Origin: Eledone cirrhosa
Lineage: Eukaryota
Direction: 5' to 3'
DNA: 64,000 bases
NCBI GenBank assembly: GCA_964016885.1
Contig: OZ024741.1
Coordinates: 139,810,001-139,874,000 of the forward strand
Shown here: one piece after another, positions 172 through 50,615 of the stretch
How the letters are laid out: every line of letters starts with the position of its first letter
Numbering within the stretch: position 1 is the stretch's first letter
Translations under genes and position numbers: made by a program
Notes under the pieces: generated by a model
What the model saw: only the letters and a program-made list of their open reading frames with translations
Databases searched by the model: none
Told to the model about the DNA's origin: nothing

Positions 172-628
<457 letters not shown>

Positions 629-779
629 ATACTTTGGGAGGGTCATGTTGCCAATAAGAAACACACGCACCAGTTGCTTTCACTTCAATTTAATTTAATA
701 TATATTTATAAATTTACAAATTTATAAATTTCTGGTTGGTTGGTTGGTTCCACAACCAGATAGTTGTTTATATATATAT

Positions 780-824
780 AGTCATAGTTCTTTCGTCACA
801 CACTCTGTGACCTCTTCAGTGACT
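780..824 (-). ncRNA. Minimal type I hammerhead ribozyme (inverted copy)
   Basis: Reverse complement of 3891-3935. Confidence 0.8.
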
Positions 825-1128
825 GGGGATTTCTTTCTTCGTTTCTGTGCCTTTCCTTTCTTCTATCCTACGCCATTTTGTTTGTGTGTGGGTTGCGTGC
901 TCAGTTTGCGCATGCGCCACATCCGGGTGTCTGTGTGTGTTTGTGTTCATTTTTCTATTTTTCTATTTTTATATTTATATTTGTTTGTTTATTTATTTAT
1001 TTATTGTTGGTTGGTTGTTTGTTCTATGTGTGTGTGTGTTTTCATTTTGTCTTGTGTGTGTTTTCATTTTGTGTGTGTTTTCAATTGTAAGTTGTTTATA
1101 TATGTGTGTGTGTGTTTTCATTTTGTCC

Positions 1129-2010
1129 TTAATTGTAAGTTGTGATGTTGCTGTTCCACTCATATTTTCTATTTAATTTTGGTTTTAATTCTTTTATGCT
1201 TACTGCCTCTGTAATTTGCCTAAACATTGCGTCTTTCTTGTGTGTGGATTCTATTTTTATTTCTATGCTCTCTAATTTACCCCTGTGTTCTATCTTAGCA
1301 TGTTGGTAGAGCACAGATGATTCTTTACTATCTTGGAGGTCTCGCCAGTGTTCATTTATTCGTTCCCCTATACTACGAGCTGTCTCACCTATGTACACTA
1401 TATTTTTGTTTCTACATTGTCCCTCAGTACATCTTATGCTATATACTACATTTCTAGTTTTACAGTTAATATGGGGGCTTATTTTACAGGTTATACATTT
1501 CTTATCTATACATGAGGGTCTTTGGAACGGGTATGTCTTGCTAATAAGTGTTTTTACGGAGGTACCAGGTCTTTCTACTATCTTAATATTGAGATTATGT
1601 TTCTTTAGGGCCCTTCTAAATTTGTAGGCTAGTTCACCTCTAGGGGTTGTATTGATGAACATTACACTCTGGTATTTATTGCTATCATACCATGAGTTTA
1701 TTCTATTGGCCTTGTTCTTAGTTCTTTCTATTCTATTCCAAAATTTGCTCCTATACAAGGGGCAGGTCCCATTTATGTCATTATTTACCATTTTTTCCCA
1801 TTTGGTTCTGGCTCCTTTATACACTCTGATTCTATCTCTCTGATTGTAGCCAGAGAACTGCATACGGTGGATGAAGTGTTGTATGTGTCTCTCTAGTTCT
1901 TCGGGGTTGCACATGCGGGACACATTTCTCATCACCCGTATCAAATCCGCAATCAGTATGTTGATTTTGGTATGGTCCGAAATGGCCGTCGAAATGATCA
2001 GCGAGAGCAA
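1129..2010 (-). pseudogene. Inverted duplicate of PLE thumb + GIY-YIG coding region
   Basis: Translation identical to the C-terminal part of 1871-3586 from AISDHTKINIL onward. Confidence 0.92.
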
Positions 2011-3586
2011 GGTTGAGTTCCGTGGGATTGATACCAGTGAGCTGGGACTTCTACTTAAGCTTACCCATAGTAATAGTTACCTAGACACTTATGACCTTAG
2101 CAACCTGTGCCCTACAAAACCAGCAAGAGGCAGACCACCTACCATTACCTCAATGGCCAAGAAAACCCACACAGATAGATGGAACGGGTGGACCAGAGCC
2201 ATACGGACACCCGAAAACCACGATGAACTGAAGAAAATGATTGCACATGCGGTAGGGGCCAGCATAAAATTAACCCTTAAGGAACATATGTTCAAATTTA
2301 ATGGTAAAACATATGCCCAAGAGGAAGGAGCAGCCATTGGTGTTAGCATTGCAGGCGACATAGCTAACTTGTTCATGGTATGGTGGGACAGTAGACTTAA
2401 ACAAAAACTTAAAGAACAATTAGAAGACAGATTAACCCTGATAATGTACTCCCGCTACGTAGATGATATAAACATCGTAGTTAAGACACCCCCACTAAAG
2501 AACAGTCAGGAACCTGAGAAAAACACAATGGAAAGCATCCAGCAAATAGCAAACTCCATCCACCAGAGCATTAGAGTTACTATAGACTACCCAAGTAGAC
2601 ACCCCAACCATCGATTACCTGTACTAGACACAGAGCTCTGGTTAGATACTATTAACAACCAAAAACAAATCCTCCATTCCCATTATGCCAAACCCATGAC
2701 TTCCAAACATCTGATCCACCGAAACTCGGCCATTTCGGACCATACCAAAATCAACATACTGATTGCGGATTTGATACGGGTGATGAGAAATGTGTCCCGC
2801 ATGTGCAACCCCGAAGAACTAGAGAGACACATACAACACTTCATCCACCGTATGCAGTTCTCTGGCTACAATCAGAGAGATAGAATCAGAGTGTATAAAG
2901 GAGCCAGAACCAAATGGGAAAAAATGGTAAATAATGACATAAATGGGACCTGCCCCTTGTATAGGAGCAAATTTTGGAATAGAATAGAAAGAACTAAGAA
3001 CAAGGCCAATAGAATAAACTCATGGTATGATAGCAATAAATACCAGAGTGTAATGTTCATCAATACAACCCCTAGAGGTGAACTAGCCTACAAATTTAGA
3101 AGGGCCCTAAAGAAACATAATCTCAATATTAAGATAGTAGAAAGACCTGGTACCTCCGTAAAAACACTTATTAGCAAGACATACCCGTTCCAAAGACCCT
3201 CATGTATAGATAAGAAATGTATAACCTGTAAAATAAGCCCCCATATTAACTGTAAAACTAGAAATGTAGTATATAGCATAAGATGTACTGAGGGACAATG
3301 TAGAAACAAAAATATAGTGTACATAGGTGAGACAGCTCGTAGTATAGGGGAACGAATAAATGAACACTGGCGAGACCTCCAAGATAGTAAAGAATCATCT
3401 GTGCTCTACCAACATGCTAAGATAGAACACAGGGGTAAATTAGAGAGCATAGAAATAAAAATAGAATCCACACACAAGAAAGACGCAATGTTTAGGCAAA
3501 TTACAGAGGCAGTAAGCATAAAAGAATTAAAACCAAAATTAAATAGAAAATATGAGTGGAACAGCAACATCACAACTTACAATTAA
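1871..3586 (+). CDS. PLE reverse transcriptase (N-terminally truncated) + GIY-YIG endonuclease
   Basis: Motif B QEEGAAIGVSIAG, motif C YSRYVDD, LPVLD, thumb, Cys linker CIDKKCITC, NVVYSIRC..YIGETARSIGERINEH, EA..LNRK. The first ~39 aa are antisense read-through from the inverted arm; true homology starts ~1989, downstream of RT motif A, so the RT is probably inactive. Confidence 0.9.
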   Translation: MKCCMCLSSSSGLHMRDTFLITRIKSAISMLILVWSEMAVEMISESKVEFRGIDTSELGLLLKLTHSNSYLDTYDLSNLCPTKPARGRPPTITSMAKKTHTDRWNGWTRAIRTPENHDELKKMIAHAVGASIKLTLKEHMFKFNGKTYAQEEGAAIGVSIAGDIANLFMVWWDSRLKQKLKEQLEDRLTLIMYSRYVDDINIVVKTPPLKNSQEPEKNTMESIQQIANSIHQSIRVTIDYPSRHPNHRLPVLDTELWLDTINNQKQILHSHYAKPMTSKHLIHRNSAISDHTKINILIADLIRVMRNVSRMCNPEELERHIQHFIHRMQFSGYNQRDRIRVYKGARTKWEKMVNNDINGTCPLYRSKFWNRIERTKNKANRINSWYDSNKYQSVMFINTTPRGELAYKFRRALKKHNLNIKIVERPGTSVKTLISKTYPFQRPSCIDKKCITCKISPHINCKTRNVVYSIRCTEGQCRNKNIVYIGETARSIGERINEHWRDLQDSKESSVLYQHAKIEHRGKLESIEIKIESTHKKDAMFRQITEAVSIKELKPKLNRKYEWNSNITTYN

Positions 3587-3890
3587 GGACAAAATGAAAA
3601 CACACACACACATATATAAACAACTTACAATTGAAAACACACACAAAATGAAAACACACACAAGACAAAATGAAAACACACACACACATAGAACAAACAA
3701 CCAACCAACAATAAATAAATAAATAAACAAACAAATATAAATATAAAAATAGAAAAATAGAAAAATGAACACAAACACACACAGACACCCGGATGTGGCG
3801 CATGCGCAAACTGAGCACGCAACCCACACACAAACAAAATGGCGTAGGATAGAAGAAAGGAAAGGCACAGAAACGAAGAAAGAAATCCCC

Positions 3891-3935
3891 AGTCACTGAA
3901 GAGGTCACAGAGTGTGTGACGAAAGAACTATGACT
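3891..3935 (+). ncRNA. Minimal type I hammerhead ribozyme in PLE 3' UTR/pLTR
   Basis: agtca-CTGAAGA-g-gtcac(agagtgt)gtgac-GAAA-gaac-TA-tgact: stem I agtca/tgact, stem II gtcac/gtgac, vestigial stem III, CUA site. Confidence 0.82.
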
Positions 3936-4589
3936 ATATATATATAAACAACTATCTGGTTGTGGAACCAACCAACCAACCAGAAATTTATAAATTTGTA
4001 AATTTATAAATATATATTAAATTAAATTGAAGTGAAAGCAACTGGTGCGTGTGTTTCTTATTGGCAACATGACCCTCCCAAAGTATAACAATATCGGTTT
4101 CAACACACGATTTCAGATAAAGAATCTTGCTAAACAAATTCAGAAACGAAATATATATATATATATATACATGTATGGAAGTATGTATACAACTAATTAA
4201 GTCAACAAAGTATTTACGTTCGTATAAGTGTACGTGTTTATAGCCTATGTGTGAGTGTGTGGGGGGTTGAGTGTATAGCCGTGTAAGTATGTTGATACCA
4301 AATTGTGATAGTTTACATTGCAGTTGATTGTCACAGATATACATAATTTTGCGTTGTTGTTATTGTTTATTTGATGTACATAAACTTTAAATTCAATTTC
4401 TTATCAGCTTCAGACAATTGGGTTTTCATCAAAACAGCCTTGTTTATTATCTCCACCATTCTAAATCATTTATTTCTTGCTACTCCAGTTATATTTAGAG
4501 TTGAAAGTTTAAGCTATTTTGTATCACACTCTACTACCTGGGCATGAAAACACGAGGGAGATAAATAAAATAATAATTGTTTCTACTTT

Positions 4590-5196: not shown

Positions 5197-5926
5197 CTGC
5201 AGACACTAAAGTATATATGTGCAGCAATATATATGTATCTGTATATACGTGTGTTTTGTGTATATAGGTATGTATGCATATGTGTGTGTACATATATAAT
5301 TATATGTATATAAGTGTAGGCATAATATCTGATATGCAATAATTCTACCAAACTCGTTCTACGTCATCAATTGACGTCTGTTTCTAACAAAGTATTCAAT
5401 CGGATCCACATACCTGGTATTTTACAGGATGAATCTCGTATTGTATAATGGCCATGAGATTATAGGTGTTTCCTGCATTTGACGCAACAGAAAAGCTTTT
5501 TCTCTAATATGTTTAGCAGGCATTCTGCGGCTGGATGCCAACCACTTCACAAGGCCCACTGGGTCGTTATTGTATCGTATGGCGTGTTCTTTTCACATCT
5601 GAAGATATTTTCAGACCCATTTTTCTATTGGTATCTATTGCTGAACACCGTTCCTATCCTCAAAACCTTTACTAGGTGTGCCGTGTAGATTTATTGTTAA
5701 TTCGGCAAGGAATGTAACATGAAAGTATATTTTACGTTTGAGTGTTTCCTTCATTAGAAATTGCTAGTTGCACCTTATCTTGAACATCCTTATTCGATTA
5801 CACATTATTGCTGCTGTTGAATAAATAATATCAATTACCATTATCTAAAATGAGTCATGTAAATAAGAAATGATTTATTCTAAAAGATATGCGATAGCCA
5901 ATCTGTTGATTTGTTATTTGCACAAA

Positions 5927-8278
5927 TCTCTGAAATTAATCCTATTAATACTGAATATATTTCCCCCTCCTTCTTCACACTATCATATTAGGATACTCTA
6001 TTATTTTTAGGGTTTTCTTTACAGTTTTCAGGCTTTAATCTGCGGTCATGCTTGGACAGTAACTTGATTTAGTCGGTCATATTATCAATCTCTTAATTTG
6101 TTTATGGAGCAGCTAATTTACCGCCATATGTACAGGCACCATGATACGGATTCTGTCTACCAAATTCCATTCTCAAGGAAATTGTTGAGTAGTGGGAGTT
6201 AAGCTACATCCTCGCAGTTCCCTTACCCACATTGCCATGTCAAGTTTTCTAATTTTGGCACAAGACCACCAGACTTTGCTGTAGCGGAAAATCAATTATA
6301 TCAACCTGTGTTTGATTGGTACTTTATTTCATCGACCCCTGAAGGATAAAAGGTAACCTTGACATCAGCGTGACTGGAACGTAGATCATACGGAACTCTG
6401 ACTAGCGAACATAACCCATTTTATTCGAGACTTTAAGGATTCTGTCAATCCCACCTCCGTCATTTTGTAAGATTAGTGTTCCAATTTTATCAAGTGATTG
6501 GCCTGCTCGTGATTTATGTTTCAAGTGGCTGAGCATTTCAAAATCTCTTGACATTTAACTTTAATTCTCGTATAAATTCAGCGTGAGAGGATATGATGCA
6601 AGACTAATCCTTTGAATTACATATACAATCTATTTGACGGGCTTCCAAACCATTTCCATGAAGCCAATTTCATTCACATGGTCTGAATTGACCCGGGGTT
6701 ATGTTAAATGGCTGTTGCCAAGGCTGGTACACGTTAGTATCGAACTTGGACCTAATAATTATGAAGCGAACATCCTAAACATTCGGCCATCCTACGTACC
6801 ATTTAACAATATTGTAATAAGATTCATTATGTTAAGACAATGACGTGTTTAGTTTGATAAACACTTTCTGCCATGCACATCGTAGTCTGTATTGATTTGG
6901 CAACAAACTTAGACGTTTATTTCCTTTGTACTTGTTTTTATTTTGGCCACTTTGATAGAATAATTTTGGAACATTATTATTTTCTATTATAATCCTGGCA
7001 CTGGGCCACCGATTAACAACAGTCCTGAGGAAATACAAAACAATGCATTTACTCTCTATACACATCCTCATTAGGGGGTGAGCTGTAAATTCAGCATAAT
7101 AGAAGAGTAGAGCAGGTGAAGGAAGAGGAAATGAATAAGTAGAATGCGAAGAATTAGAAGATAAAGGAGAAGTAGGTAAGTGGAAGAAGGCGGAAGAAAA
7201 CAGGATGTTTAGAAGAAAGAGAAAGAGAAGGATAAGAATGAAGAAAAAGAGAAAGTAGGGGACGGAACATTAGGAGGAATAAAAGATGAAAACGGTGAAG
7301 TAGAATGAAGAATGTAAGAAAGAGGAGTAAAAAATAATGATGGAAGAACAACTATAACAGCACAATAAACATAACACAAGAAATCATCAATAACTCAACA
7401 TCGTCTTCAAGAACAATAAAATACGTCAACAACAATAAAAGTTATCAACAACAATAAAAGTCATCAACAACAATAAAAGCAACAATAACAATAAAACCAA
7501 CCACCAACAATCTATTCAAGATAAAGTCTATACATGCGACATCTCCGTCAACGAATCCTATCCAATATTCTTACCACATTGATGAAAGTTTCTCCCTTAA
7601 ATGACTTGATCACATGTCATGATCACGTGTTAAACTATTTCTGCTATGGTTTAATGGTTACAATCTTCGGCTCACCATCTTAAAATCCTGAGATCGAATC
7701 CCAGCTCTCCCTTGAGAGAAAAAATAGTTTATTTCACCTTTCTGAACACACCATCTCTGAAATTAATCCTATTAATACTGAATATCTTCCCCCACTCCAT
7801 GTTCACACTATCATATGATGATACTCTATTACTTTTAGTTCTTTTTTCACTGGTTTCAACCATTAGTCTGCTAATATGCTTGGACAGTAACTTGATTTAG
7901 TCACTCATATTATCAATCCCTTAATGTTTGTATCGAACGGCTAACTTACCGGCCGTAGGTACAGACAAAGGCACACTGATGCGGCTTCTGCCTACCAAAT
8001 TCCACTCACAAGGAAATTGCTGAGTAGTGGGATGAACATACATCCTCGCAGTTGCCTTACCCACATTGCCATGTCAAGTTTTCTAATTTTGGCGAAAAGA
8101 CCAGCAGTCTTTTGTGTAGCGGAAAATCAATTATATCAACCTCAGACTTTGATTGGTACTTTATTTCATCGACTCCTGAAGGATGAAAGGTAACCCTGAC
8201 ATGAGCGTGCCTTGAACGCAGAGCTTTCGGAGCGGTGACCGGTGAACATAAGCCATTTTGTCCGAGATTTAAAGGAAT
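5927..8278 (+). repeat. Diverged ~510-bp direct duplication (5927-6440 and 7753-8278) containing SINE-like fragments
   Basis: Shared atctctgaaattaatcctattaatactgaatat...ccttacccacattgccatgtcaagttttctaattttggc...gaacataa in both copies. Confidence 0.8.
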
Positions 8279-9832
8279 CCGGCTCGTTCACTCCAACAAC
8301 TCCCAACTCTACTCTCAATCGATCATCGTGTTTTGACTATTTACTATTTTCTTTTATCTTTTTGTATATATTTTTTTAAATTCCTTTCTAAATTTGCGCA
8401 TGTATATACGAGAGATTCTGCAGTGTCTAAGGCAAGCAAAGGCTGAATTAGAAGATACTTATTGAGATTTCCGAGTAGAGTAAATGCGCACCGAAAACTT
8501 TATCCATGCCTGTATTCAATATTTACAAATATATTCTAAGCCATAGCGTGTGTAAATTGTAACATTTGAAATATGAACCATTTAGAATGTTCACTAAGCT
8601 GGTAAGATTGATGTAGTCTCGGCGATTATATGATTTTAAAATTAAATTCGAAACATTGCTGAGATCAGAAACTATCAAAGCAACCAGGATATTTAATTTA
8701 AATACTTCAGATAAAAACTAATAACATACAAACCAAATTTTAATAATATTAGCTTTATAAAATTATTATTTCTAAATACCCGTCAGGAAGTAGATGCATG
8801 GAAACATATTTTGGAAATTATTTCCACGTTATTAAATCTGAAATGATATAAAACTATGTACATTAAATGATTTGCAGACCATAAAACAGATGATTTACAC
8901 TTTATATATAAGTTATTTAGTTAACGAAAAAAAATAATAATAATAATTTGATCACTCCTCAGATGATTTAATAAAGTGACTTACTTTATTTTGGCGTAAA
9001 CTTTTAAAATAAGTTTCATTCTCCTTGAAAAGATTATTAAGATATGCCTAAATGTAATTGCGTGTGTGGAACTAAGCCAAAAATGAACACATACGTTCAC
9101 TCAAGCAGAGCATGTTTGTTTGTGTGGGCCTGCATCACTACATAGCCCCACACAGTGTTTCGACTTGAATCTCACACCGTGGTAATGTGCGTTATCTTAT
9201 AACGAAGACTCATATTGAGTTGCTCCTTGAAGGTTTATTAGTTTTAATGTCAAAGCAACACTCCTTAGGATCCAGTTTCGATTCATCTTCGTGGTATTTT
9301 GAGCACGTGTCATTTAGCATAGCGCCGAGTTGTGCCTGTCTATAAGAGTGAAAGTGAATAGACGGAAACTGTTTGTAACATCATTGAATGGACTCTAACT
9401 CTGATTTTAAGGGACAGCCTTGTCATTTCGAGAAATTAAGGCGGTAAAGCCTGAAAATTCTGCAGACATATGAACATTTTTTTTAGATTTTGTGATATTT
9501 ATTTAGGTTGAAAATACGTAGTTTTCCATGGGAATCTTTAAATTAGGTGTAGAACTCAGTACTGCAAGTCTACCTGATTAGAGCAGCGTTAAAAAAAGTG
9601 TCTTTCTCGTGACCACAACATGTCACCGGAATTTGAAGACACAACATCTGTAAGACAAGTGATAAAGACCTCAGAGGTGCATCACTTGAAGGGCTAAATA
9701 TTGCTAGTTGCGGGAAAATATGGAGAATTTATGTGTTCCAGAGGGAAAGAAAGAATTTTTTTTAATGTTTGTGTCCGATTTTGTGGGCTGACAAAATGTG
9801 ATAGGTAGAAGAGTTTAGATGACGAATCTGGG

Positions 9833-11086: not shown

Positions 11087-11219
11087 GTGTATATATCATA
11101 TATATATATATATATATATTGTCATACTGATTGCGGATTTGGTACGGGTGATGAGAAACGTGTCCCGCATGTGAAACCCCGAAGAACTAGAGAGACACAT
11201 ACAACACTTCATCCACCGT

Positions 11220-11954
11220 ATGCAGTTCTCTGGCTACAATCAAGGAGATAAAATCAGAGTGTATAGAGGAGCCAGAACCAAATGGGAAAAAATGGTAAAT
11301 AATGACATAAATGGGACCTGCCCCTTGTATAGGAGCACATTTTGGAATATAATAGAAAGAACTAGGAACAAGGCTAATAGAATAAACTCATGGTATGATA
11401 GCAATAAATACAAGAGTGTAATGTTCATCGATACAACCCCTAGAGGTGAATTAGCTTACAAATTTAGAAGGGACCTAAATAAACATAAACTCAATATTAA
11501 GATAGTAGAAAGACCAGGTACCTCCGTAAAAACACTCATTAGCAAAACATACCCTTTTCAAAGACCCTCATGTATAGATAAGAAATGTATAACCTGTAAA
11601 ATAAGCTCCCATATTAACTGTAAAACTAGAAATGTAGTGTATAGCATAAGATGTACCGAAGGACAATGTAGAGACAAAAATATAGTGTACATAGGTGAGA
11701 CAGCTCGTAGTGTAGGGGAACTGATAAATGAACACTGGCGAGACCTTCAAGATAGTAAAGAATCATCTGTACTCTACCAACATGCTAAAATAGAACACAG
11801 GGGTAAATTAGAGAACATAGAAATAAAAATAGAATCTACACACAGAAAAGACGCAATGTTTAGACAAATTACAGAGGCAATAAACATAAAAGAATTACAA
11901 CCAAAATTAAATAGAAAATATGAGTGGAACAGCAACATCACAACTTACAATTAA
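11220..11954 (+). pseudogene. PLE thumb/linker + GIY-YIG endonuclease fragment
   Basis: Near-identical to the C-terminus of 1871-3586 (NVVYSIRC..YIGETARS). Confidence 0.9.
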
Positions 11955-12154
11955 GGACAACATTAAAACACACACACACATAGAACAAACAACCAACCAG
12001 TAACATGTAAATAAACAAATAAATAAATGAACATAAACACACACAGACACCCGGATGTGGCGCATGCGCAGACTGAGCACACAACACACACACAAAAACA
12101 AAATGGCGTAGGACAGAACAAAGGAGAGGCACAGAAACAAAGAAAGGAATCCCC

Positions 12155-12198
12155 AGTCACTGAAGAGGCCACAGAGTGTATGACGAAAGAACTATGAC
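12155..12198 (+). ncRNA. Minimal HHR, stem II partly decayed
   Basis: agtca-CTGAAGA-ggccacagagtgtatgac-GAAA-gaac-TA-tgac; homologous to 3891-3935. Confidence 0.6.
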
Positions 12199-12398
12199 AA
12201 TATATAAACAACTATCTGGTTGTGGAACCAACCTACCAACCAGACATTTATAAAGTTATAAATTTATTATAATAAATTGAAGTGAAAGCAACTGGTGCGT
12301 GTGTTTCTTATTGGCAACATGACCCTCCTAAATTATAACAATATCGGTTTCAACACACGATTTCAGATAAAGAATCTTGCTAAACAAATTCAGAAACG

Positions 12399-12510
<112 letters not shown>

Positions 12511-13645: not shown

Positions 13646-15096
13646 GATAGAGAAAGAGGGAGAGAGAGGAAGAGAAAGAGATACATATATATATATGTAT
13701 GTGTGTGTATATATATGTGTATGTATATATATATGTATGTGTGTGAGTGTGTATGTGCCGTTATAACGGAGTGAGAGCGTGAGAATGGGAGAGAGGATGA
13801 GAGTGAATGAGCAGTGTGTTATTTTTTTTTTTCATTGTTCGTCACTTTCAAGTTTTCATTCATTTGCATAGGATGTCGTTATTTCGTCCTTTTAATTGTA
13901 TAATTGTAATAACTCATTACAATTAATATTATTGTATCAGCACTAAAATATTATTTCATAAATTGTTTAATAAAGGCGACAATATACCCGATTCAAATTG
14001 CTCAAATGCCACATACATGAACATTCATGAAATTGTTACGAGTACTACAGTCGATTATGGCCAATATTTTCAATACCACTAGGTTATGTTAATGATTTAT
14101 TTTCACCTACGACATTTTTACCATTTATGTACTACTACAGTTTGCGGTAAATATATTTTGAAATGTGAGTATAAGTCTGTGTACATGAATCTACAGAAAC
14201 TACTTTAATGTTTAACATCATGAATCGTATGGAGCCATATAAACAAGTCTTATTTGAAATGTATAAACCATGTTATGGCTGCACGACATTAGGAAATAAT
14301 GCCTTTATTCAAATACTACAAATTTTGAGAACGATCTTCTTCTTATAAAAAATATTACAAAAGTTTGAAGTAACAAATTATAGGAAACGATATTAGCAAA
14401 ACATCATTGAGAAGTACAAAACAATACTGTGACTTATCACAGTAAATAGTAGTCTATATCGCAACACTGCACATTTTAGTAAGATGTGTCGACCAAGAGA
14501 TACTCTGTCAAACCTGTCTTTAGATATTTACTATTAAATCATTATAGGATTTAAGAGTTATATTATATGCATTTGACCGTGTATTGCTCATGGCTATATA
14601 TATAATTTGAGTGGTTTTGGGCTGCCATTTCTAGCAGCTCACCCCACTCAAACCACTGCTCTACTGTCTTGTACACGCAATTCCTTCTCCCGCGCGTTAC
14701 AAGGCAGTTACTTTTAGTTCTCTTAGAGTTGTTCCGAATGTATACACCTAACATACGCTGATGAACCTGGGTGAATTCAATTCCAACATTGATTTTCTGG
14801 CGATAAATTCTCTTTGAGTTTGCATGTGTGTGACATAGAGTTATAAAGATGGTTTGTTTCATTTTAATCTATCTCTTTAATTATAATATATCTGCCTCAC
14901 CGTTCGTAATTTATAAGTCCCATACGCTAGTGGTATTCCCTGTAACTTGATAAACGCACATTCTCTCTCTCTCTCTCGTGTGTGATTTCTTCTCTATATT
15001 ATATTTGAAGAGCTCGGGATTCTTGTTCTTTTGAGCTCATGAATACCAGGGACTAACGCGAGTTTCTGACTCAGTTACTTCATTTTGATATATATA

Positions 15097-15136
<40 letters not shown>

Positions 15137-15253
15137 TTGAAATAAAATGAAAACGAAATTTCATTTCTCACACTTAGTACGGCACTTACTTAAATGTAAG
15201 CATGTGTGTATACGTACATACATATATGTATACAGACGTACAGTAGCATGCAC

Positions 15254-15296
<43 letters not shown>

Positions 15297-15463
15297 TATA
15301 CATATATACATACAGGTACACATACATATATGCACGTATCAGTTTAGCGGACGCTTATTATAACGCCGCTTTGTTCGTTTGTAAACAAACTGAACAGCCT
15401 GAATTTTATGCCGTACGGTGTTAAGGCAACCACGTCACCTGTTTGTTCAACACTGACACAGGA

Positions 15464-15506
15464 ACGATGTACTAGTTTCAAGCTTGTTAGCTATCATCAG
15501 CACCGT
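15464..15506 (-). ncRNA. Minimal type I HHR (array copy 1)
   Basis: Reverse complement of acggtg-CTGATGA-tagctaacaagctt-GAAA-ctag-TA-catcgt. Confidence 0.85.
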
Positions 15507-15945
15507 ATACCCTTCTGCCAGATAGTTGAACGTTCGAAAGTATATATTTTCCTTATGAAAATTAACGGCTGAGCAGCCTAATTTGCATATCGAGTGAGTA
15601 TAGTCGGTCAGGCATACCGAAAACGATAAGTTGAAATAAAATGAAAACGAAATTTCATTTCTCACTCTTAGTACGGCACTTACTTAAATGTAAGCATGTG
15701 TGTATACGTACATACATATATGTATACAGACGTACAGTAGCATGCACATATATACATATATATATATATATACATATATATACATATATACATACAGGTA
15801 CACATACATATATGCACGTATCAGTTTAGCGGACGCTTATTATAACGCCGCTTTGTTCGTTTGTAAACAAACTGAACAGCCTGAATTTTATGCCGTACGG
15901 TGTTAAGGCAACCACGTCACCTTTTTGTTCAACACTGACACAGGA

Positions 15946-15988
15946 ACGATGTACTAGTTTCAAGCTTGTTAGCTATCATCAGCACCGT
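15946..15988 (-). ncRNA. Minimal type I HHR (array copy 2)
   Basis: Same motif as copy 1. Confidence 0.85.
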
Positions 15989-16229
15989 ATACCCTTCTGC
16001 CAGATAGTTGAACGTTCGAAAGTATATACTTTCCTTATGAAAATTAACGGCTGAGCAGCCTAATTTGCATATCGAGTGAGTATAGTCGGTCAGGCATACC
16101 GAAAACGATAAGTTGAAATAAAATGAAAACGAAATTTCATTTCTCACTCTTAGTACGGCACTTACTTAAATGTAAGCATGTGTGTATACGTACATACATA
16201 TATGTATACAGACGTACAGTAGCATGCAC

Positions 16230-16272
<43 letters not shown>

Positions 16273-16439
16273 TATACATATATACATACAGGTACACATA
16301 CATATATGCACGTATCAGTTTAGCGGACGCTTATTATAACGCCGCTTTGTTCGTTTGTAAACAAACTGAACAGCCTGAATGTTATGCCGTACGGTGTTAA
16401 GGCAACCACGTCACCTTTTTGTTCAACACTGACACAGGA

Positions 16440-16482
16440 ACGATGTACTAGTTTCAAGCTTGTTAGCTATCATCAGCACCGT
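16440..16482 (-). ncRNA. Minimal type I HHR (array copy 3)
   Basis: Same motif as copy 1. Confidence 0.85.
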
Positions 16483-16732
16483 ATACCCTTCTGCTAGATA
16501 GTTGAACGTTCGAAAGTATATACTTTCCTTATGAAAATTAACGGCTGAGCAGCCTAATTTGCATATCGAAAGAGTGACAAATGAAATTTCGTTTTCATTT
16601 TATTTCAACTTATCGTTTTCGGTATGCCTGACCGACTATACTCACTCGATATGCAAATTAGGCTGCTCAGCCGTTAATTTTCATAAGGAAAGTATATACT
16701 TTCGAACGTTCAACTATCTCGCAGAAGGGTAT

Positions 16733-16775
16733 ACGGTGCTGATGACAGCTAACAAGCTTGAAACTAGTACATCGT
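16733..16775 (+). ncRNA. Minimal type I HHR (array copy 4)
   Basis: acggtg-CTGATGA-cagctaacaagctt-GAAA-ctag-TA-catcgt. Confidence 0.85.
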
Positions 16776-16948
16776 TCCTGTGTCAGTGTTGAACAAAAAG
16801 GTGACGTGGTTGCCTTAACACCGTACGGCATAAAATTCAGGCTGTTCAGTTTGTTTACAAACGAACAAAGCGGCGTTATAATAAGCGTCCGCTAAACTGA
16901 TACGTGCATATATGTATGTGTACCTGTATGTATATATGTATATATATG

Positions 16949-16979
<31 letters not shown>

Positions 16980-17220
16980 GTGCATGCTACTGTACGTCTG
17001 TATACATATATGTATGTACGTATACACACATGCTTACATTTAAGTAAGTGCCGTACTAAGGGTGAGAAATGAAATTTCGTTTTCATTTTATTTCAACTTA
17101 TCGTTTTCGGTATGCCTGACCGACTATACTCACTCGATATGCAAATTAGGCTGCTTAGCCGTTAATTTTCATAAGGAAAGTATATACTTTCGAACGTTCA
17201 ACTATCTGGCAGAAGGGTAT

Positions 17221-17263
17221 ACGGTGCTGATGATAGCTAACAAGCTTGAAACTAGTACATCGT
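17221..17263 (+). ncRNA. Minimal type I HHR (array copy 5)
   Basis: 6-bp stem I acggtg/catcgt, intact CTGATGA and GAAA, stem II agct/agct, palindromic CTAG stem III, GUA site. Confidence 0.87.
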
Positions 17264-17420
17264 TCCTGTGTCAGTGTTGAACAAAAAGGTGACGTGGTTG
17301 CCTTAACACCGTACGGCATAAAATTCAGGCTGTTCAGTTTGTCTACAAACGAACAAAGCGGCGTTATAATAAGCGTCCGCTAAACTGATACGTGCATATA
17401 TGTATGTGTACCTGTATGTG

Positions 17421-17479
<59 letters not shown>

Positions 17480-17943
17480 GTGCATGCTACTGTACGTCTG
17501 TATACATATATGTATGTACGTATACACACATGCTTTCATATATATATATATATATATATACATAAATATAAATTAGCGAGAATCGTTTTCAGCTCAGGAA
17601 TTAACGAAAATCAACGTCCGATATGTGTGGCAAGCGGTATATGGTTCATATGAATCAGAGCTACGACATATGTTAAGGGCCAAACACACTGAGATGATGG
17701 TTAAACATATGATCCGCAAAGCCAAAACAAACGACCAAGTAATTCGGGTCAAACAATATATATATATGTGTTGATACTTTCCCGGACCCTGGAGTGATGG
17801 TAAAATCCAGTATTGGTTTCTGCGACTACAAAATCAGGTACTGTCCGCCTACATAAAGAATGTTGGGCTTCTGGTGATATGATGAACAAGGCAGTCGTGT
17901 TATCAACGGGTTTTGCTCCAAAATGCTATAGATAGTGTGGCTA

Positions 17944-18145: not shown

Positions 18146-21954
<3,809 letters not shown>

Positions 21955-21957
21955 TAG

Positions 21958-22070: not shown

Positions 22071-22074
<4 letters not shown>

Positions 22075-23165
22075 GAAGCTTGTCCTCATCAGTGGCCATC
22101 CAACCATCGTAGGCATTTCGTCGCATTAGAGGCCATATACTTCAGGTTGGTGCGAGCAGCGGCTAAAGAAAAGTCGTTGCGACAGTAAATAAGGGGGACG
22201 CTAGGGTAAACGAACAAAATGGTTTAAGCACCAGAAAGTAATGAAGAAGGAAACAAGTCCCAGATTTCTATGAATATAAATTCGGTGAAATCGTGAACGA
22301 GAGAATAAAGACCATCAAACCTGGTTGAAATGTGAGCAAAGAAGGAATTTCGCACAGGTCTAACGGGAGGAAGAAGGAGTCTGGTCTGCGAATTCGGTAA
22401 ACATAAGTTCAGTGAAGTCGCAGACGAGAGAGAGTGAGAAAAAAAATTCATACCGGCTTGGCAAAGTGCCCGCGAGAAAAGGAATACGGACAGGTCAAAC
22501 GGGAAGAAAGGTGAGGAGGAGAGGTAGTGACAGAGAGTGAGTGAATGAAAGGTGTGGAAGAGGCTAACAGAGAGAGAGACTGCTAGAAAGGGTAAAAACA
22601 CAAAGAACGAAACAGACTGGTGGCAGCAGAGGAAAAATATATGTGTAAATATGGTAATAATGGAGCTGCGGCGTTGCAAATGGGTTACATATGAAAAAAT
22701 GTGTCCTCATCAGTGGCCATGCAACCGTCGTAGGCATTTCGTCGCATTAGAGGCCATATACCTCAGGTTGGTGCGAGCAACGGCTAAAAAAAAGTCGTTG
22801 GGACACGTAAATAAGGGGGACGCTAGGGTAAATGAACAAAATGGTTTAAGCAGCAGAAAGTTATGAAGAAGAAAACAAGTCCCAGATTTCTATGAATATA
22901 AATTCGGTGAAATCGTGAACGAGAGAATAAAGACCATCAAACCTGGTTGCAATGTGAGCAAGGAAGGAATTTCGCACAGGTCTAACGGGAGGAAGAAGCG
23001 TCCCCCTTATTTACGTGTCCCAACGACTTTTTTTTAGCCGTTGCTCGCACCAACCTGAGGTATATGGCCTCTAATGCGCCGAAATGCCTACGACGGTTGG
23101 ATGGCCCCTGATGAGGACAAACGTTTTCATTTGTAACCCATTTGCGGCGCCGCAGCTCCATTATT

Positions 23166-23170
<5 letters not shown>
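22071..23170. repeat. Partial-tandem (~621-bp period) plus inverted non-coding element in (TA)n; PLE pLTR-like architecture
   Basis: 22082-22377 repeats at 22703-22998; 22997-23170 is an inverted copy of ~22650-22825. Confidence 0.8.
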
Positions 23171-26310: not shown

Positions 26311-29300
26311 TTTATTATTATTATTATTTGCATTTATCTTGCTTTATGTTTATACGAGTTATCACCAAGTCACAACCAGTGACCTCAAGAGACAACAAGG
26401 TCCGCCATGTTCAAGAAAGAACACACATATTCACACATGCATCCTTAGTGTTTAGACTTGTGATGTACTTATATTGACAGGATCTTCCTTAGTATATGGG
26501 CAGTTCCCATTAGTACTATCTTTTGTATTTCTCCTATACGCGGGTTTCCTGGGATTTGCGATAAGTAGTCGTTAGACCCCTTAGGTATCATTCCCAGAGC
26601 GCCTACAACCACTGGTATTGTTTTAGTTCTCAATTTCCACATTTTTCCAATTTCTATCTCCAGGTCCTTATACTTGCTCAATTTTTCAAATGTTTTTATA
26701 GATACATTCTTGTCTATTGGAACAGACATATCAATTAGCAGGCATACCCTCCTTTGAAAGTCCTTCAATATTATATCAGGTCTATTTGCATCTATTTTTC
26801 GGTCTGTTTGGATGCTAAAGTTCCACAAGATTGAGATGTGATCTTTTTCAAGTATGGGAGGTGGTTGATGCTCCCACCAATTCTTTTGATGGGGCAGGTC
26901 AAAATGCTTGCACATTATCCAATGTATGTATTGTGCAGCTCTGTCATGCCTGTTTAGGTATTCGGTTGGAGCTATAGGACTGCATATTGAAATTATATGG
27001 TCAATGGTCTCTGGTTGTTTTTTGCATACACGGCATAATGGGCTGCACCCATTTTTTATTATGTTGGCTTGGTAATTTTTTGTTGGCAGACACTGATCTT
27101 GTGCGGATATAATCAGTCCTTCAGTCTCCGATTTCAGTCCAGAGGATGCCAACCACTGATGGGTTAAAGTTTTGTCAACATCAGGATTGTTAGCTCGCTC
27201 TGGGTATTTTCCATACAGAGGCTTTTCTTGCCATTTCTTAGCCAGTTTCTGTAGCAGTTCTTTCTTTACAGTTACTTTTACCTGCTTTGCTTTTTCTGTG
27301 TTTTCCATTTCAGCAGTAAATGGGACTTCTGAAATTTGTAGTCCATTACTGTATCTTTGTGCATCTTTTGTAATGGAATATGATCTTTTGGTGCTTTCGT
27401 GTTTCAAAACGAGTTTGATCATCCAATCATGTGATTCCCTTAGATATGTGGATAATCCAATTGTTGCAGTTTTCAACGCAATGTCTAACTGGATTAACCC
27501 ACGTCCTCCTTCTTTCCTAGGGAGATATATTCTATCTATGTCTGCCTTAGGGTGATGCATTCTGTGCATGGTTAAGAATTTTCGGATTTTTGTATCGAGC
27601 CTACGGATCTCTGTGCTTGACCAGTTGATGACATTGTAACTGTAGGTTACTACTGGTATGGCAAGCGTGTTTATGGCATCGATCCTATTCCTTGCATTCA
27701 ATTCCGTTCTTAAGATTGCTCTGACTCTGCGGTAACATTCCTTCCTTATCCTTTCCCTCATTGTCGAGTGCTTGATTCCCTCTCCTTCAAAAACACCTAG
27801 ATATTTGTAAGTTTGTTCTTGATCAAGCTCTCTTATCACGTTCCCCCGATCAAGATTAATGTCTGAACTCTTCAGCAGCTTTCCTCTGGTGAACGTTGCT
27901 TTGGCGCATTTATCCAGTCCAAACTCCATTTTAATGTCATCACTGAACTGCTTCACAGTGGATAATAGCCCTTGCAATTGTTCATCATTTTTTGCAAATA
28001 GTTTCAGGTCATCCATGTAGAACAGGTGATTAATGGTTTTGTCATAGACTCTATATCCATGTTTTGTTTCATTGAGCATTTTACTTAATGGTATAAGTGC
28101 GATGCAGAATAAAAGCGGTGATAAAGAGTCACCCTGAAAAATTCCACAATTAATGTTAACTTCTCCAGCTTCCAGTGAATTTGTTTCACTATTCAAAAGG
28201 AGTGTCGTTCTCCATGTCCTCATACTGAATGACAAAAACCTCCTGATAACGGGGGATATTTTGAAAATCTCTAAACATTTTTCAATCCAACTGTGTGGCA
28301 AACTATCAAATGCTTTTTTATAATCTATCCAAGCAATCGATAGATTTTTGTGTCTATTATGACAATCTTCCAGTATCATTTTGTTAACCAGAAGCTGATC
28401 CTTACAGCCATATGAGCCTCGTTTACACCCTTTCTGCTCAATGGGAAATAGGTCATTTGTTATCAGGTGGTCATATGTGTATTCAGTTAGGACTGATGTT
28501 AAAATTTTATACATTGTGGTCAAGCAGGTTATCGGTCTGTAATTTTTGGGATTGTTTGTCTCATCATTCTTCGGTAGCAGGAATGTAATGCCGTTAACTA
28601 GCCATGATGGTATCTTTTGTGGCTCCTTAACTATTTCATTGTAAAGTTGGGCTAACAGCTCATGAGACTCTGTGAAGGCATTTATCCAAAAGTTTTGTAT
28701 TTTGTCTTTTCCTGGGGATTTCCATTTGCTGGTTTTTCTTAGAGCCAAGCGCAGCTGTTCAACTGTTATATTTTCCCATGTTTGTTCTTCAAGGTGAGCT
28801 GTTTCTTTCATTTGTCTGTCTATCCATGGGGCATGTATGTTATGAACTTTTTCTTCGGCCCAGATCTTTTCCCAGAATTCTTGCACTTCCTCCTTGGGTG
28901 GTATTGATTTAGCAGTTATTGTTGACTTACCAATTTTTCTGTAGAAGTTTCTTTGGTTGTTTTTGAACATATTATTGTCCTTATAGAATCTAGATCGTTT
29001 TTCAAAGCGCCTTATACGAGCAGCTTTGGCCGACACTTTTTGCTTGATTGTTTCTATCAGCATGTCTATGTCACATGTTGATCTTATACTGTACTTTTTT
29101 TTCAATTTTCTAAGTTTAGTTTGTTTAACATGTTCACCTACTTTATAGTTTGTTAAAATTTCTATGTCAGATCGGAGAAGGTTTATTTGGCGATTGATGT
29201 TATCTTGCCAAGTAGATTTCTTGTGGGAATTCCTTTGTTTTTTCATCTTCACTCCACATAAGTGAGTGGTGACTTTAGCCGATGCATAATAGAGATGATT

Positions 29301-31215
29301 TAAGTCAGTAATGCTTAGTTTGTTTGTGATGATAATGTTTTTGAGAATTATGTTAGTCTTGTGTATTATCTTTTGATTCTGTTTGGAGTTCTGGATCTTA
29401 GGGAGGGTGTCTCGTTCCCCCATGTCAGATTCTTTCATTTTCATCCATTCGATCATAATTTCATCCTTCAAGTTGGCAAGTTCATTCTCATTCATTTCTT
29501 TATCATTTACGATCTCATTATTTTCATTTGGAGTTTCATCCTGAGCATGCACTCCCTCCACTTTTTCGCTCCTTTCTTTAATTTGTTCTGTTGCCAGTGA
29601 TTCCGCCCCAACTCTGGGATTCGAAGTGTTACAATTTACCTCGTTTTCACTGACACATGCTTCATTTTCCCTTCGCTGACTTTGTGCTACTAGCTTGATC
29701 TGATCAATTTCTATATCAGTTAGTAACTTTTTTCTTACAATATTTCTTCGTATATTGGCTAGTTTGTTACTGTCAATATAGCCTCTGTTTTCGGGATGTT
29801 TCTTTTTCCAGTTGATATATGTTTGCTCTGTATTCGATGTATTTGATGGGTAGTACATGGCAGTGTAGAAAGCCTCAAGGACTTCTTTATTATCTTCCCT
29901 TGACCATTTTTCTCTCTTTTTCTTTGGATTTCTTGGTGGTGAGCATGGAGGGCCAACAGTAGGAGTATTCCGGTTATGGGAGGTCTCCAGCTCCGAAGTG
30001 ATGGGAAGGTTTGAACCATTAGCTGATTTTTCGACCCCAGTCTGGTTCCTCTCTGAGGGACGCGGCCCTTTTTTACCCGGGTGACGGCCGATCCGGTATG
30101 AGATTTCATCATTAGACATCTACTTTATTTTGTCGCGTTTTATCCTTATCCGCCAAGGGGTAATCTTTTCGTGTTACCACTTCTAGAACGAGTGTCAACC
30201 AAGACTAGAGGGGTCGTTCTCCCCTAGAGACATGGCTATTCCCCGCCGGCCGCCATCCCGGTATTTCTTGGTCACGGGGTTTTCTTTTTGTTGTTTTTTT
30301 TAAATTGTTATTATCATGAGTGGTTCCTTACTGTGAGCATTGCGTGGCTTAAGAATGAAATTATTAATAATTGTCTCCACTCCAGGCCAGCAATCACCCA
30401 GTGCATTACAATAATATAATATACTTTTTGTTGTAGTTGGCTGTTATTGCTGCTGGCTATGTCGGTGGTGGTGCCGGGGCTTTTTATATTGTTGGTGAGG
30501 AAGGGGTGAGCCAGCAGTCCCATAATTGTTGATGTAGACCTTTGTCCGTGGCAAGGTCACCAAGTCAATCTATTTATATCTTTTGCTAGCCTCTCTCTTG
30601 TCTAGTGCTACCACCCCCTTCCCTTTTCTCTCTCAAGTTAACAGGGGAATAGTGTCAGTAGCATTGAATGAGTGGTGGCGGCGATGATGGATGTGGTGGG
30701 GTGGTGGCAGCGGTGGTGTTGTGGTTACTGATATAGTATCTATGAGTTTGTGTTCGTATGTTTAATATATATTTTCATTATATTTTGTGTTGACATATTC
30801 CCGTAAAATTTGAATTAAACATTTTTTTAAATTTGAGACAATAATAATAGTAATTATTATTATGATGCCGGTGAAGTTGCCGTTATATTTAGTGTGATGG
30901 GATAGGTAGTGTATCAAGTTTCTGGTGTTGGTGAAATTGAAATTGCCGCTGTTCTATATAGTGTAGACAGAGGGTGTTTTGTTCCATTTATAACCATTTT
31001 CTTTTTTTGAATACAAAATATATAATACAAAATTGAATATTTGAGCGATACAACAATATAATATGGATCCGAAACTTTATGGGACCTCATTCGGTGCCTT
31101 TATGCAACATTTGTGCTAAGAATTGTTCTTTCACAATTGATTTAAATATGTTAAGAATCAAAAAACTTACGGGAGCAATTTCGTGACGTTCTACCACCTC
31201 GTGCGTCTTCTTCCC
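26311..31215 (-). mobile_element. Apparently full-length R4/Dong-like non-LTR retrotransposon in (TAA)n
   Basis: Intact single ORF, ~140-bp 3' UTR ending in (TAA)n at 26312-26327, and ~1.1-kb 5' region sharing motifs with the neighbouring element. The 5' boundary is inferred. Confidence 0.88.
26469..30119 (-). CDS. R4/Dong-clade ORF: reverse transcriptase + CCHC + restriction-like endonuclease (1216 aa)
   Basis: WKSPGKD, NYRPITCL, EQKG, WIDYKKAFDS, GIFQGDSLSPLLF, HLFYMDDLKL, FGLDKC, YKYLG, GGRGL, CRVC..ETIDHIISIC, RHD, NRPDI..ID..EKLSKY. Confidence 0.96.
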   Translation of the reverse strand: MSNDEISYRIGRHPGKKGPRPSERNQTGVEKSANGSNLPITSELETSHNRNTPTVGPPCSPPRNPKKKREKWSREDNKEVLEAFYTAMYYPSNTSNTEQTYINWKKKHPENRGYIDSNKLANIRRNIVRKKLLTDIEIDQIKLVAQSQRRENEACVSENEVNCNTSNPRVGAESLATEQIKERSEKVEGVHAQDETPNENNEIVNDKEMNENELANLKDEIMIEWMKMKESDMGERDTLPKIQNSKQNQKIIHKTNIILKNIIITNKLSITDLNHLYYASAKVTTHLCGVKMKKQRNSHKKSTWQDNINRQINLLRSDIEILTNYKVGEHVKQTKLRKLKKKYSIRSTCDIDMLIETIKQKVSAKAARIRRFEKRSRFYKDNNMFKNNQRNFYRKIGKSTITAKSIPPKEEVQEFWEKIWAEEKVHNIHAPWIDRQMKETAHLEEQTWENITVEQLRLALRKTSKWKSPGKDKIQNFWINAFTESHELLAQLYNEIVKEPQKIPSWLVNGITFLLPKNDETNNPKNYRPITCLTTMYKILTSVLTEYTYDHLITNDLFPIEQKGCKRGSYGCKDQLLVNKMILEDCHNRHKNLSIAWIDYKKAFDSLPHSWIEKCLEIFKISPVIRRFLSFSMRTWRTTLLLNSETNSLEAGEVNINCGIFQGDSLSPLLFCIALIPLSKMLNETKHGYRVYDKTINHLFYMDDLKLFAKNDEQLQGLLSTVKQFSDDIKMEFGLDKCAKATFTRGKLLKSSDINLDRGNVIRELDQEQTYKYLGVFEGEGIKHSTMRERIRKECYRRVRAILRTELNARNRIDAINTLAIPVVTYSYNVINWSSTEIRRLDTKIRKFLTMHRMHHPKADIDRIYLPRKEGGRGLIQLDIALKTATIGLSTYLRESHDWMIKLVLKHESTKRSYSITKDAQRYSNGLQISEVPFTAEMENTEKAKQVKVTVKKELLQKLAKKWQEKPLYGKYPERANNPDVDKTLTHQWLASSGLKSETEGLIISAQDQCLPTKNYQANIIKNGCSPLCRVCKKQPETIDHIISICSPIAPTEYLNRHDRAAQYIHWIMCKHFDLPHQKNWWEHQPPPILEKDHISILWNFSIQTDRKIDANRPDIILKDFQRRVCLLIDMSVPIDKNVSIKTFEKLSKYKDLEIEIGKMWKLRTKTIPVVVGALGMIPKGSNDYLSQIPGNPRIGEIQKIVLMGTAHILRKILSI

Positions 31216-41603: not shown

Positions 41604-41987
41604 GAAAGGTATAGAAAACATTGTAGTAAAAAGCCAACAGTATTCCATAATATATATATATATATATAAGTATGGTAGGGCGACATATCAACTTCTGATT
41701 TTAATGTTATATATATTTGTATGATTGTGTGTGAGTGTGCGTGTATGTGTGTGGGTGTGCATATATAACTAGTCTTTACATATATATATATATATATATG
41801 TAGATAAATCTACCAAGAGTTTACGGTAGTGTCCAATCCGTATGAAGAACTCAATGTATTCCGGATATCATGGAAAGAAGAGATGTAATGTAAATCCACT
41901 TTCGGTGAAAGATAAACGGTATACAGAGTCAAGATAAAATATTAAACAAATAATGAACAAACAATTCCTTATATTAAACAAAAAAAG

Positions 41988-42142
41988 TTCACTATTTAAC
42001 GATCGTTTCTAGGGCATATATGTGTTATAATTGGTATGCATATTCAACAGATCTATGTACAAAATTATACAAAATTATACAAATTATCAAGATTAAATAT
42101 ACATACCTAACACATATATACGCCGTCTTCAGAAATAATGAA
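41988..42142 (-). ncRNA. Long-stem-II HHR (inverted pLTR copy)
   Basis: Reverse complement of 45895-46049. Confidence 0.72.
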
Positions 42143-42964: not shown

Positions 42965-43021
<57 letters not shown>

Positions 43022-43119
43022 TATACACATATATACCCATACATCTAAATATACATACACATACATACACACATACATGTATATACATGTACATACATAT
43101 ACGCACATCGATATACATA

Positions 43120-43161
<42 letters not shown>

Positions 43162-43504: not shown

Positions 43505-43557
<53 letters not shown>

Positions 43558-43879: not shown

Positions 43880-43940
<61 letters not shown>

Positions 43941-44060: not shown

Positions 44061-44112
<52 letters not shown>

Positions 44113-50565: not shown

Positions 50566-50615
<50 letters not shown>

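What the first reader, a model, noticed from the sequence alone, without database searches (positions are those of the whole stretch)
15132..17535. Five-copy ~490-bp retrozyme-like array with PLE-style 5' inversion
Seen: near-identical non-coding units, each with one intact minimal HHR (GUA site, CTAG stem III). Three lie on the minus strand and two on the plus strand, diverging from a junction at ~16570. The array sits in (TA)n and each unit carries its own variable (TA)n. Known: animal non-LTR retrozymes are tandem HHR repeats processed to monomeric and circular RNAs, proposed to be mobilised by PLEs. Inference: both arms are concatemers made by rolling-circle reverse transcription of a ~490-nt circle, and the divergent inversion matches the architecture of the autonomous PLEs in this window, giving structural evidence of PLE mobilisation.
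Basis: partly seen in the sequence, partly recalled or inferred. Interest (0 to 1): 0.82.

Follow-up and report, generated by a model that had tools for sequence, protein, structure and literature searches.

The report
Retrozyme array with Penelope insertion footprint
Five near-identical copies of a short non-coding repeat, each carrying a hammerhead ribozyme motif predicted to cut its own RNA, sit back-to-back in two arms whose ends have the same layout as neighbouring Penelope-like jumping genes, which suggests that those elements' enzymes likely copied this RNA parasite into the genome in one event.

Summary
The array is real. A 1438-nt minus arm (15132-16569) and a 970-nt plus arm (16570-17539) of a 482-494-nt non-coding unit carry five intact type I hammerheads and lie inside (TA)n. 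Correction: the ribozyme is the canonical retrozyme type, not the minimal PLE type. New here: the two 3' ends are staggered by 62 nt, the PLE 'tail'. Four other insertions in the window share this inverted, tailed, (TA)n design; two encode RT/GIY-YIG-type proteins. All 12 substitutions are private to one copy, no arm starts or ends at the cleavage site, and read data show a large, diverged family (85-99% alike). Best reading: a non-LTR retrozyme inserted in trans by a Penelope-like RT/endonuclease in one two-ended priming event (about 0.8). A circular template is the likeliest source (0.5), but an uncleaved linear multimer is not excluded. Cleavage, expression, circles and multimers at other loci were not shown. 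Retrozymes and their proposed PLE link are known; I found no report of this insertion footprint on a retrozyme.

The parts
15088..15134 (.). Left (TA)n target remnant; its last AT is shared with the 3' end of the left arm
15132..16569 (-). Left arm, 1438 nt, three turns less 32 nt; ends at the 'long' 3' site
15132..15193 (-). 62-nt 'tail': terminal sequence of the left arm that the right arm's end lacks
15464..15506 (-). Type I hammerhead, copy L3 (predicted cut after 15470)
15946..15988 (-). Type I hammerhead, copy L2 (predicted cut after 15952)
16440..16482 (-). Type I hammerhead, copy L1 (predicted cut after 16446)
16569..16570 (.). Head-to-head inversion junction with no shared or added base; both 5' ends lie within 2 nt of the base of a 7-bp stem of the unit (GAGUGAG/CUCACUC)
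16570..17539 (+). Right arm, 970 nt, two turns less 18 nt; ends at the 'short' 3' site
16733..16775 (+). Type I hammerhead, copy R1 (C instead of U at position 10.1; predicted cut after 16769)
16770..17257 (+). One complete cut-to-cut monomer, 488 nt, the predicted circle
16918..16981 (+). Internal (TA)n/(TG)n block, 43-61 nt across the five copies (approximate limits)
17039..17101 (+). Internal copy of the two 3'-end sites (short end 17039, long end 17101); inferred reverse-transcription start sites
17221..17263 (+). Type I hammerhead, copy R2: helix I 6 bp, extended past a 3-nt bulge into a predicted rod; helix II 4 bp with U.U at its base; palindromic helix III (predicted cut after 17257)
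17538..17570 (.). Right (TA)n target remnant

Best explanation
This is a tandem non-coding repeat with a canonical type I hammerhead motif in every unit (a non-LTR retrozyme), likely inserted in one event by the reverse transcriptase/GIY-YIG endonuclease of a Penelope-like element acting in trans, most likely on a ~490-nt circular RNA. Shown: the two head-to-head arms, (TA)n on both sides, 3' ends 62 nt apart, perfect read-through at all five cleavage sites, private-only substitutions. Inferred: a multimeric transcript is cut by paired (dimeric) hammerheads and ligated to a circle. The PLE protein then nicks both strands of a (TA)n run, and each nicked end primes cDNA at one of two internal start sites 62 nt apart. 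Each cDNA runs nearly three or two turns, both stop at the stem that encloses the long start site, and the two cDNA ends are joined. About 0.8 for PLE-type insertion whatever the template; 0.5 for the full version with a circle.
For: Architecture: inverted arms, tail and (TA)n are the PLE hallmarks in PMC8557442. The tail equals the distance between two RT start sites, and both target strands are extended, in PMC11167929. The same design occurs at four other places in the window, with tails of 58, 136, 40 and 45 nt. Two of these encode proteins whose nearest atlas clusters carry HTH_animal/GIY-YIG/RVT families, with hammerheads upstream of their 3' ends. One source: 12 substitutions in 2145 nt, none shared, in a family whose contigs are mostly 90-99% alike to this copy (763 of 4580 at 99+). 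All 4 of 4 copies that contain 17126-17127 carry a minority state (T at 17127 is replaced by A in 139,874 of 143,843 depth in X1). No arm begins or ends at the cleavage site (3' ends 282 and 338 nt downstream), so a cleaved linear monomer cannot be the template without jumps, and all five sites read through without indels. The monomer folds far better than shuffles (z -9.1, 0 of 100; z -5.2 without the microsatellite, antisense -2.3). Among the 40 of 123 difference rows shown, those inside the ribozyme fall at N7, loop II and one helix I pair, none in the invariant core. Three contigs of X4, from a diverged subfamily, run into (AT)n at the homologous long end.
Against: No RNA evidence: RNA-labelled runs hold only 0.05 of the words, and the kind of X4 is not on record. 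In vitro, hammerhead cleavage was not needed and unprocessed RNA was the main substrate of the anole PLE. Eight of nine Xenopus retrozyme dimers did not cleave. No sequence link to a partner PLE was found, and no shared start-site motif (best rank 3 of 482). The 62-nt tail is longer than the 30-40 nt in print, though within the window's range. The short end could not be checked in reads because the tool skipped 16980-17030. One locus only. The junction-at-stem coincidence (1.5% of position pairs) was noticed after the fact.
Confidence: 0.5

Rival explanations
1. Same PLE-driven two-ended insertion, but the template was an uncleaved linear transcript of a young, homogeneous donor array of three or more units; no circle is needed.
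For: Unprocessed RNA was the dominant substrate and ribozyme mutants inserted normally for the anole PLE. A U.U pair at the base of helix II went with weak monomer cleavage in axolotl HHR_Amex2 (22% in 1 h). Eight of nine Xenopus dimers did not cleave. A homogeneous donor would also give private-only differences.
Against: It needs at least three tandem ribozymes to stay uncut, although tandem copies favour the active dimer. Circles are abundant for the three animal retrozymes tested in PMC7229834. Two sites are hit twice with different bases in different copies (P about 0.005 under uniform mutation), weakly in line with repeated passes over one molecule.
Confidence: 0.28
2. A short PLE-type insertion (one or two units) came first, and the extra units were added later by slippage or unequal crossing-over, as for satellites.
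For: This route is proposed in 10.64898/2026.07.22.740005. The internal microsatellite could promote misalignment, and two left-arm blocks are identical (55 nt).
Against: Stepwise duplication should leave shared derived alleles; there are none among 12 substitutions. Both arms are multimeric and equally diverged. The two identical blocks are not adjacent (L1 and L3).
Confidence: 0.12
3. The unit is only the pLTR of an autonomous PLE not present in the window, and this is an unusual truncated insertion of that element.
For: In Xenopus, 24 of 57 retrozyme families matched known elements, 21 of the 22 being PLEs. In organism B, 4 contigs match only the ribozyme region and continue into other sequence. 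A whole-genome search was not possible.
Against: The period is ~490 nt with no coding sequence (longest ATG frames 41 and 62 codons, microsatellite-derived), whereas an autonomous tandem repeats with the whole element. No similarity to window pLTRs beyond a microsatellite. The ribozyme is canonical, unlike the minimal one in PLE1.
Confidence: 0.07
4. Assembly artefact (fold-back chimera or mis-expanded repeat).
For: No read spanning the junction was seen; one search covered only 16980-17410 and listed no contig joint for it.
Against: The arms are not mirror images (different lengths, offset ends, private substitutions, different microsatellite blocks). The flanks are unique. The same design recurs at four other loci whose arms range from 90 to 100% alike.
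Confidence: 0.03

Closest known systems
Animal non-LTR retrozymes (coral, mussel, axolotl; PMC7229834; Xenopus and other vertebrates, 10.64898/2026.07.22.740005)
   Same: Tandem non-coding units with a canonical type I hammerhead, GC under 50%, strong predicted self-pairing, co-occurrence with PLEs. The U.U pair at the base of helix II is as in axolotl HHR_Amex2.
   Different: Two inverted multimeric arms with a staggered tail in (TA)n. In PMC7229834 the word 'inverted' does not occur; in the preprint 'inversion', 'tail' and 'orientation' do not occur. The unit is longer than the 150-450 bp of the 2020 paper but within the 51-972 bp of the preprint. Expression and circles are untested here.
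EN+ Penelope-like elements (Penelope/Poseidon, Neptune, Hydra, Naiad; PMC8557442; anole PAc, PMC11167929)
   Same: Inverted 5'-truncated arm, tail at one end only, (TA)n target, hammerhead upstream of the 3' ends, tandem read-through.
   Different: No ORF; both arms are pure multimers of a 490-nt unit; canonical rather than minimal ribozyme; tail of 62 nt rather than 30-40.
Non-autonomous Chlamys elements such as MRC1 (PMC8557442)
   Same: Non-coding PLE passengers that often insert as multicopy head-to-tail arrays.
   Different: Green algae; most Chlamys lack canonical hammerheads; they generally resemble their autonomous partners at the 3' end, whereas no such match was found here.

Membership tests
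Non-LTR retrozyme | Tandem units of a few hundred bp, each with a complete type I hammerhead | tested here: met
   5 of 5 copies intact, period 482-494 nt
Non-LTR retrozyme | Canonical ribozyme (helix I 6 bp, helix II 4 bp, short palindromic helix III) | tested here: met
   against the definition in PMC4209133; the loop 1-loop 2 contact was not modelled
Non-LTR retrozyme | Non-coding, GC under 50% | tested here: met
   longest ATG frames 41 and 62 codons; GC 0.34-0.36; no tRNA gene
Non-LTR retrozyme | Highly self-paired monomer or circle | tested here: met
   z -9.1; z -5.2 without the microsatellite; circular MFE -165.7 kcal/mol, 68% paired
Non-LTR retrozyme | Repeated family, multimeric at other loci | tested here: inconclusive
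   Large diverged family shown (4580 of 16,285,364 contigs in X1; 22 contigs in organism B); multimers elsewhere not testable, no genome
Non-LTR retrozyme | Self-cleavage and expression as linear and circular monomers | not testable with these tools
   no confirmed RNA run holds the unit
Non-LTR retrozyme | Target-site duplication longer than 4 bp when present | not testable with these tools
   both ends lie in (TA)n
PLE-type insertion | Inverted 5'-truncated copy joined at the 5' end | tested here: met
PLE-type insertion | Tail at one end only | tested here: met
   62 nt; window comparators 40, 45, 58 and 136 nt; 30-40 nt in print
PLE-type insertion | (TA)n target | tested here: met
   both arms end in AT shared with the run
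Autonomous PLE or its pLTR | RT plus GIY-YIG ORF in the repeating unit | tested here: not met
Autonomous PLE or its pLTR | Homology to a pLTR | tested here: inconclusive
   none to nine regions of the window on either strand except a microsatellite match; PLE families outside the window not searchable
PLE minimal hammerhead | Helix I 4-5 bp, long helix II, unpaired base after position 9, G10.1-C11.1 | tested here: not met
   the array motif lacks these; PLE1 at 3896 has them

The most novel reading that the evidence does not exclude
A single-event genomic footprint of rolling-circle reverse transcription of a ribozyme circle by Penelope-like machinery: two cDNAs primed at two defined start sites on one ~490-nt circle, each running almost whole turns and stopping at the start-site stem, possibly where the partner enzyme sits. 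It would show that retrozyme arrays are born multimeric at insertion and that PLE pLTRs, tails and inversions come from the same circular intermediate.
Probability: 0.35. Interest if true: 0.75.

Novelty: new variant of a known kind. Interest (0 to 1): 0.56.

Why it matters
Which enzyme moves animal retrozymes is an open question. The case for PLEs in the papers read rests on shared ribozymes, tandem layout, co-occurrence and pLTR homology, and the 2026 preprint also allows later local amplification. This locus adds evidence of another kind: the inversion, tail and (TA)n target that mark PLE insertion, on a canonical-hammerhead retrozyme, beside four comparators. It names two candidate RT start sites and a stop region, so circle versus linear template and the partner PLE can be tested in the published in vitro priming assay. 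The limit is one locus with no RNA data.

Tried and rejected
Own genome: none held, so no survey of other copies. Exact-pattern scans for the ribozyme found nothing in metagenome, viral and prokaryote collections. Rfam at gathering score: nothing; the microRNA-family matches lie far below their gathering scores and over (TA)n/(TG)n. No tRNA. RAD-read loose ends at 17076-17077 and 17320-17322 first looked like the ends of a shorter dispersed element. I rejected this because these and all 5 of 5 read-end piles fall on the four AATT sites of the stretch, with a GCATGC site just upstream; they are most likely restriction-ligation chimeras. For the same reason the 15 joints shown for X21 (122 not shown) and its read share were not used as evidence of inversions or copy number. 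A shared start-site motif between the array and window PLEs was not supported (ranks 3 to 243 of 482). Snap-back copying of one arm from the other: the left arm is too long to be a copy of the right; the right could be copied from the left, but no allele is shared, and PLE3 cannot arise that way. The 22072-23170 element did not discriminate templates (three sequences). The octamer-promoter lead found no relevant paper. Pfam alone did not classify the PLE proteins; their clade was not tested by a tree.

Full report
Observation. The sequence, repeat finders and self-BLAST show two arms of one unit joined head to head at 16569|16570: 15132-16569 on the minus strand (1438 nt) and 16570-17539 on the plus strand (970 nt). 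Five hammerhead cores lie at 15500, 15982, 16476 (minus) and 16739, 17227 (plus). Predicted cuts give three complete monomers of 494, 482 and 488 nt. A strict descriptor matched the real unit and 0 of 5000 shuffles. Both flanks are (TA)n, and each unit has a microsatellite block of 43-61 nt. Rfam found nothing at gathering score and only weak Hammerhead_HH9 matches.

The ribozyme. Helix I has 6 bp and continues past a 3-nt bulge into a predicted long rod. Helix II has 4 bp with U.U at its base, and helix III is 2 bp with a self-complementary ACUAGU. PMC4209133 (parts 1-2 of 4 read) calls this the canonical metazoan form that works as a dimer in tandem repeats. The PLE minimal form has a short helix I and a long helix II, as PLE1 in this window does at 3896. 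PMC7229834 (passages, parts 2-3 of 6 and Discussion read) describes the same U.U in axolotl HHR_Amex2, weak as a monomer and efficient as a dimer. The monomer folds at z -9.1 (0 of 100 shuffles); the part without microsatellite folds at z -5.2 against -2.3 for the antisense strand.

The family. One search listed 23 runs, 20 holding part of the stretch and 3 holding half or more; the best may be the assembly's own sample. I laid 4 of them on 16980-17410 only: 4580 of 16,285,364 contigs in X1 (763 at 99+, 1545 at 95-99, 1728 at 90-95, 544 under 90%), 75 in X4, 22 in X5 (organism B), and 110,728 of 12,467,656 reads in X21. Of 123 difference rows 40 were shown. Those inside the ribozyme are N7 (17231), loop II (17241) and the helix I pair 17224/17260, where G>T and T>G reach similar shares in X21 minus mates (5352 of 10338; 6030 of 12154). 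That fits a G.U to U.G swap, but the output is not phased. The large loose-end piles in X21 fall on AATT sites and were rejected as library chimeras. Three X4 contigs of a diverged subfamily enter (AT)n at the homologous long end, which is weak independent support. The short end lay in a region the tool skipped. No run is confirmed as RNA holding the unit.

Architecture. The right arm ends at the equivalent of 17039 and the left at 17101, 62 nt further, each on an AT shared with the target. PMC8557442 (passages) lists an inverted 5'-truncated copy, a 30-40-bp tail at one end and microsatellite targets as PLE traits. PMC11167929 (parts 1-2 of 4) shows that a PLE protein cuts and extends both target strands and starts cDNA at two internal sites whose spacing is the tail. 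The window holds four comparators. PLE1 (621-4152) has arms 100% identical over 1368 nt and a 58-nt tail. PLE3 (41797-52742) has 99.7% arms and a 136-nt tail. A 621-bp non-coding unit at 22072-23170 has a 40-nt tail, and a PLE1-related remnant at 57346-58227 has a 45-nt tail. The PLE1 and PLE3 proteins fall next to HTH_animal/GIY-YIG/RVT clusters at 0.94 and 0.98; Pfam alone gave only a weak RVT_1 hit for PLE1. PLE1 has a CX4CX2C linker of the Neptune/Nematis kind; clades were not tested by a tree.

One event. Outside the microsatellite block there are 12 substitutions in 2145 nt, none shared between copies. All 4 of 4 copies that include 17126-17127 carry a state that is a minority in the family. 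This argues against stepwise duplication, against one arm being a later mirror copy, and against a fold-back artefact. The 3' ends lie 282 and 338 nt downstream of the last cut and the five cleavage sites read through cleanly, so the template was a circle or an uncleaved multimer. The arms fall 32 and 18 nt short of whole turns, and both 5' ends lie within 2 nt of the base of a 7-bp stem that encloses the long end (1.5% of position pairs; noticed after the fact). A slipped pairing of the two cDNA ends at this stem, or stalling at bound protein, would explain the join; both are inference. Two sites are hit twice with different bases (P about 0.005), a weak hint of repeated passes over one RNA.

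Against. Cleavage was not needed for the anole PLE and uncleaved RNA was its main substrate. Eight of nine Xenopus dimers did not cleave (10.64898/2026.07.22.740005, parts 1-3 of 5 read). No partner PLE could be named: no similarity to nine window regions beyond a microsatellite and no shared start motif. No genome was held, and pattern scans elsewhere were empty.

Novelty. Retrozymes, their circles and the proposal that PLEs move them are in print (PMC7761336 passages), as are multicopy non-autonomous Chlamys insertions. Eight literature searches and word look-ups in the main retrozyme papers showed no retrozyme array with an inverted arm and tail. Subscription papers and supplements were not seen. 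An earlier unchecked note from another genome (e1-7881736) describes PLE-type marks on a ribozyme-free tandem unit; it is a lead, not support. Verdict: a new variant of a known kind, valuable as a testable insertion footprint; interest 0.56.

Noticed in passing
window 45905-46049 (+), also 52544 (+) and 42132 (-): The pLTR of PLE3 holds a hammerhead with a 116-nt helix II insertion, a 10-bp helix I and a palindromic helix III, with a predicted cut after GUU; standard descriptors would likely miss it.
   Followed up: partly
window 22072-23170: Second non-coding tandem unit (621 bp, 1.5 turns in the left arm) with an inverted arm, a 40-nt tail and (TA)n flanks; it has a CUGAUGA half-core without a matching GAAA; copies are about 93% alike.
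   Followed up: partly
window 57346-58227: Older inverted remnant related to the PLE1 3' end (77% over 75 nt), arms 90% alike, 45-nt tail, (TA)n flanks.
   Followed up: partly
window 621-4152 and 11123-12400: PLE1 is a 5'-truncated RT/GIY-YIG-type element with 100% identical inverted arms and a minimal hammerhead at 3896 and 819; a second, more truncated copy ends at the same long 3' site.
   Followed up: partly
window 18222-18292 (-): Lone hammerhead-like motif (helix I 6 bp, U.U at the base of helix II, weak helix III) about 20 nt upstream of a (TA)n run, 700 nt from the array and unrelated to it in sequence.
   Followed up: partly
window 16651-16658 and each other unit: An ATGCAAAT octamer about 85 nt upstream of the ribozyme core; 5 of the window's 11 octamers are these copies. 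A snRNA-type internal promoter in newt satellite 2 is recalled, not confirmed.
   Followed up: partly
unit positions equivalent to window 17061 and 17208: Two sites are mutated twice, to different bases, in different copies.
   Followed up: partly
window 20494-21957 (-): Third, 5'-truncated PLE-like ORF with a weak GIY-YIG match (E 0.018), flanked by (TA)n.
   Followed up: no
window 52783-53905 and 5926-8279: Two direct duplications (498 nt at 94.6%; 528 nt at 83.5%) with no hammerhead found.
   Followed up: no
window 26469-30119 (-): Uninterrupted 1216-aa non-LTR retrotransposon ORF with a strong RVT_1 match.
   Followed up: no
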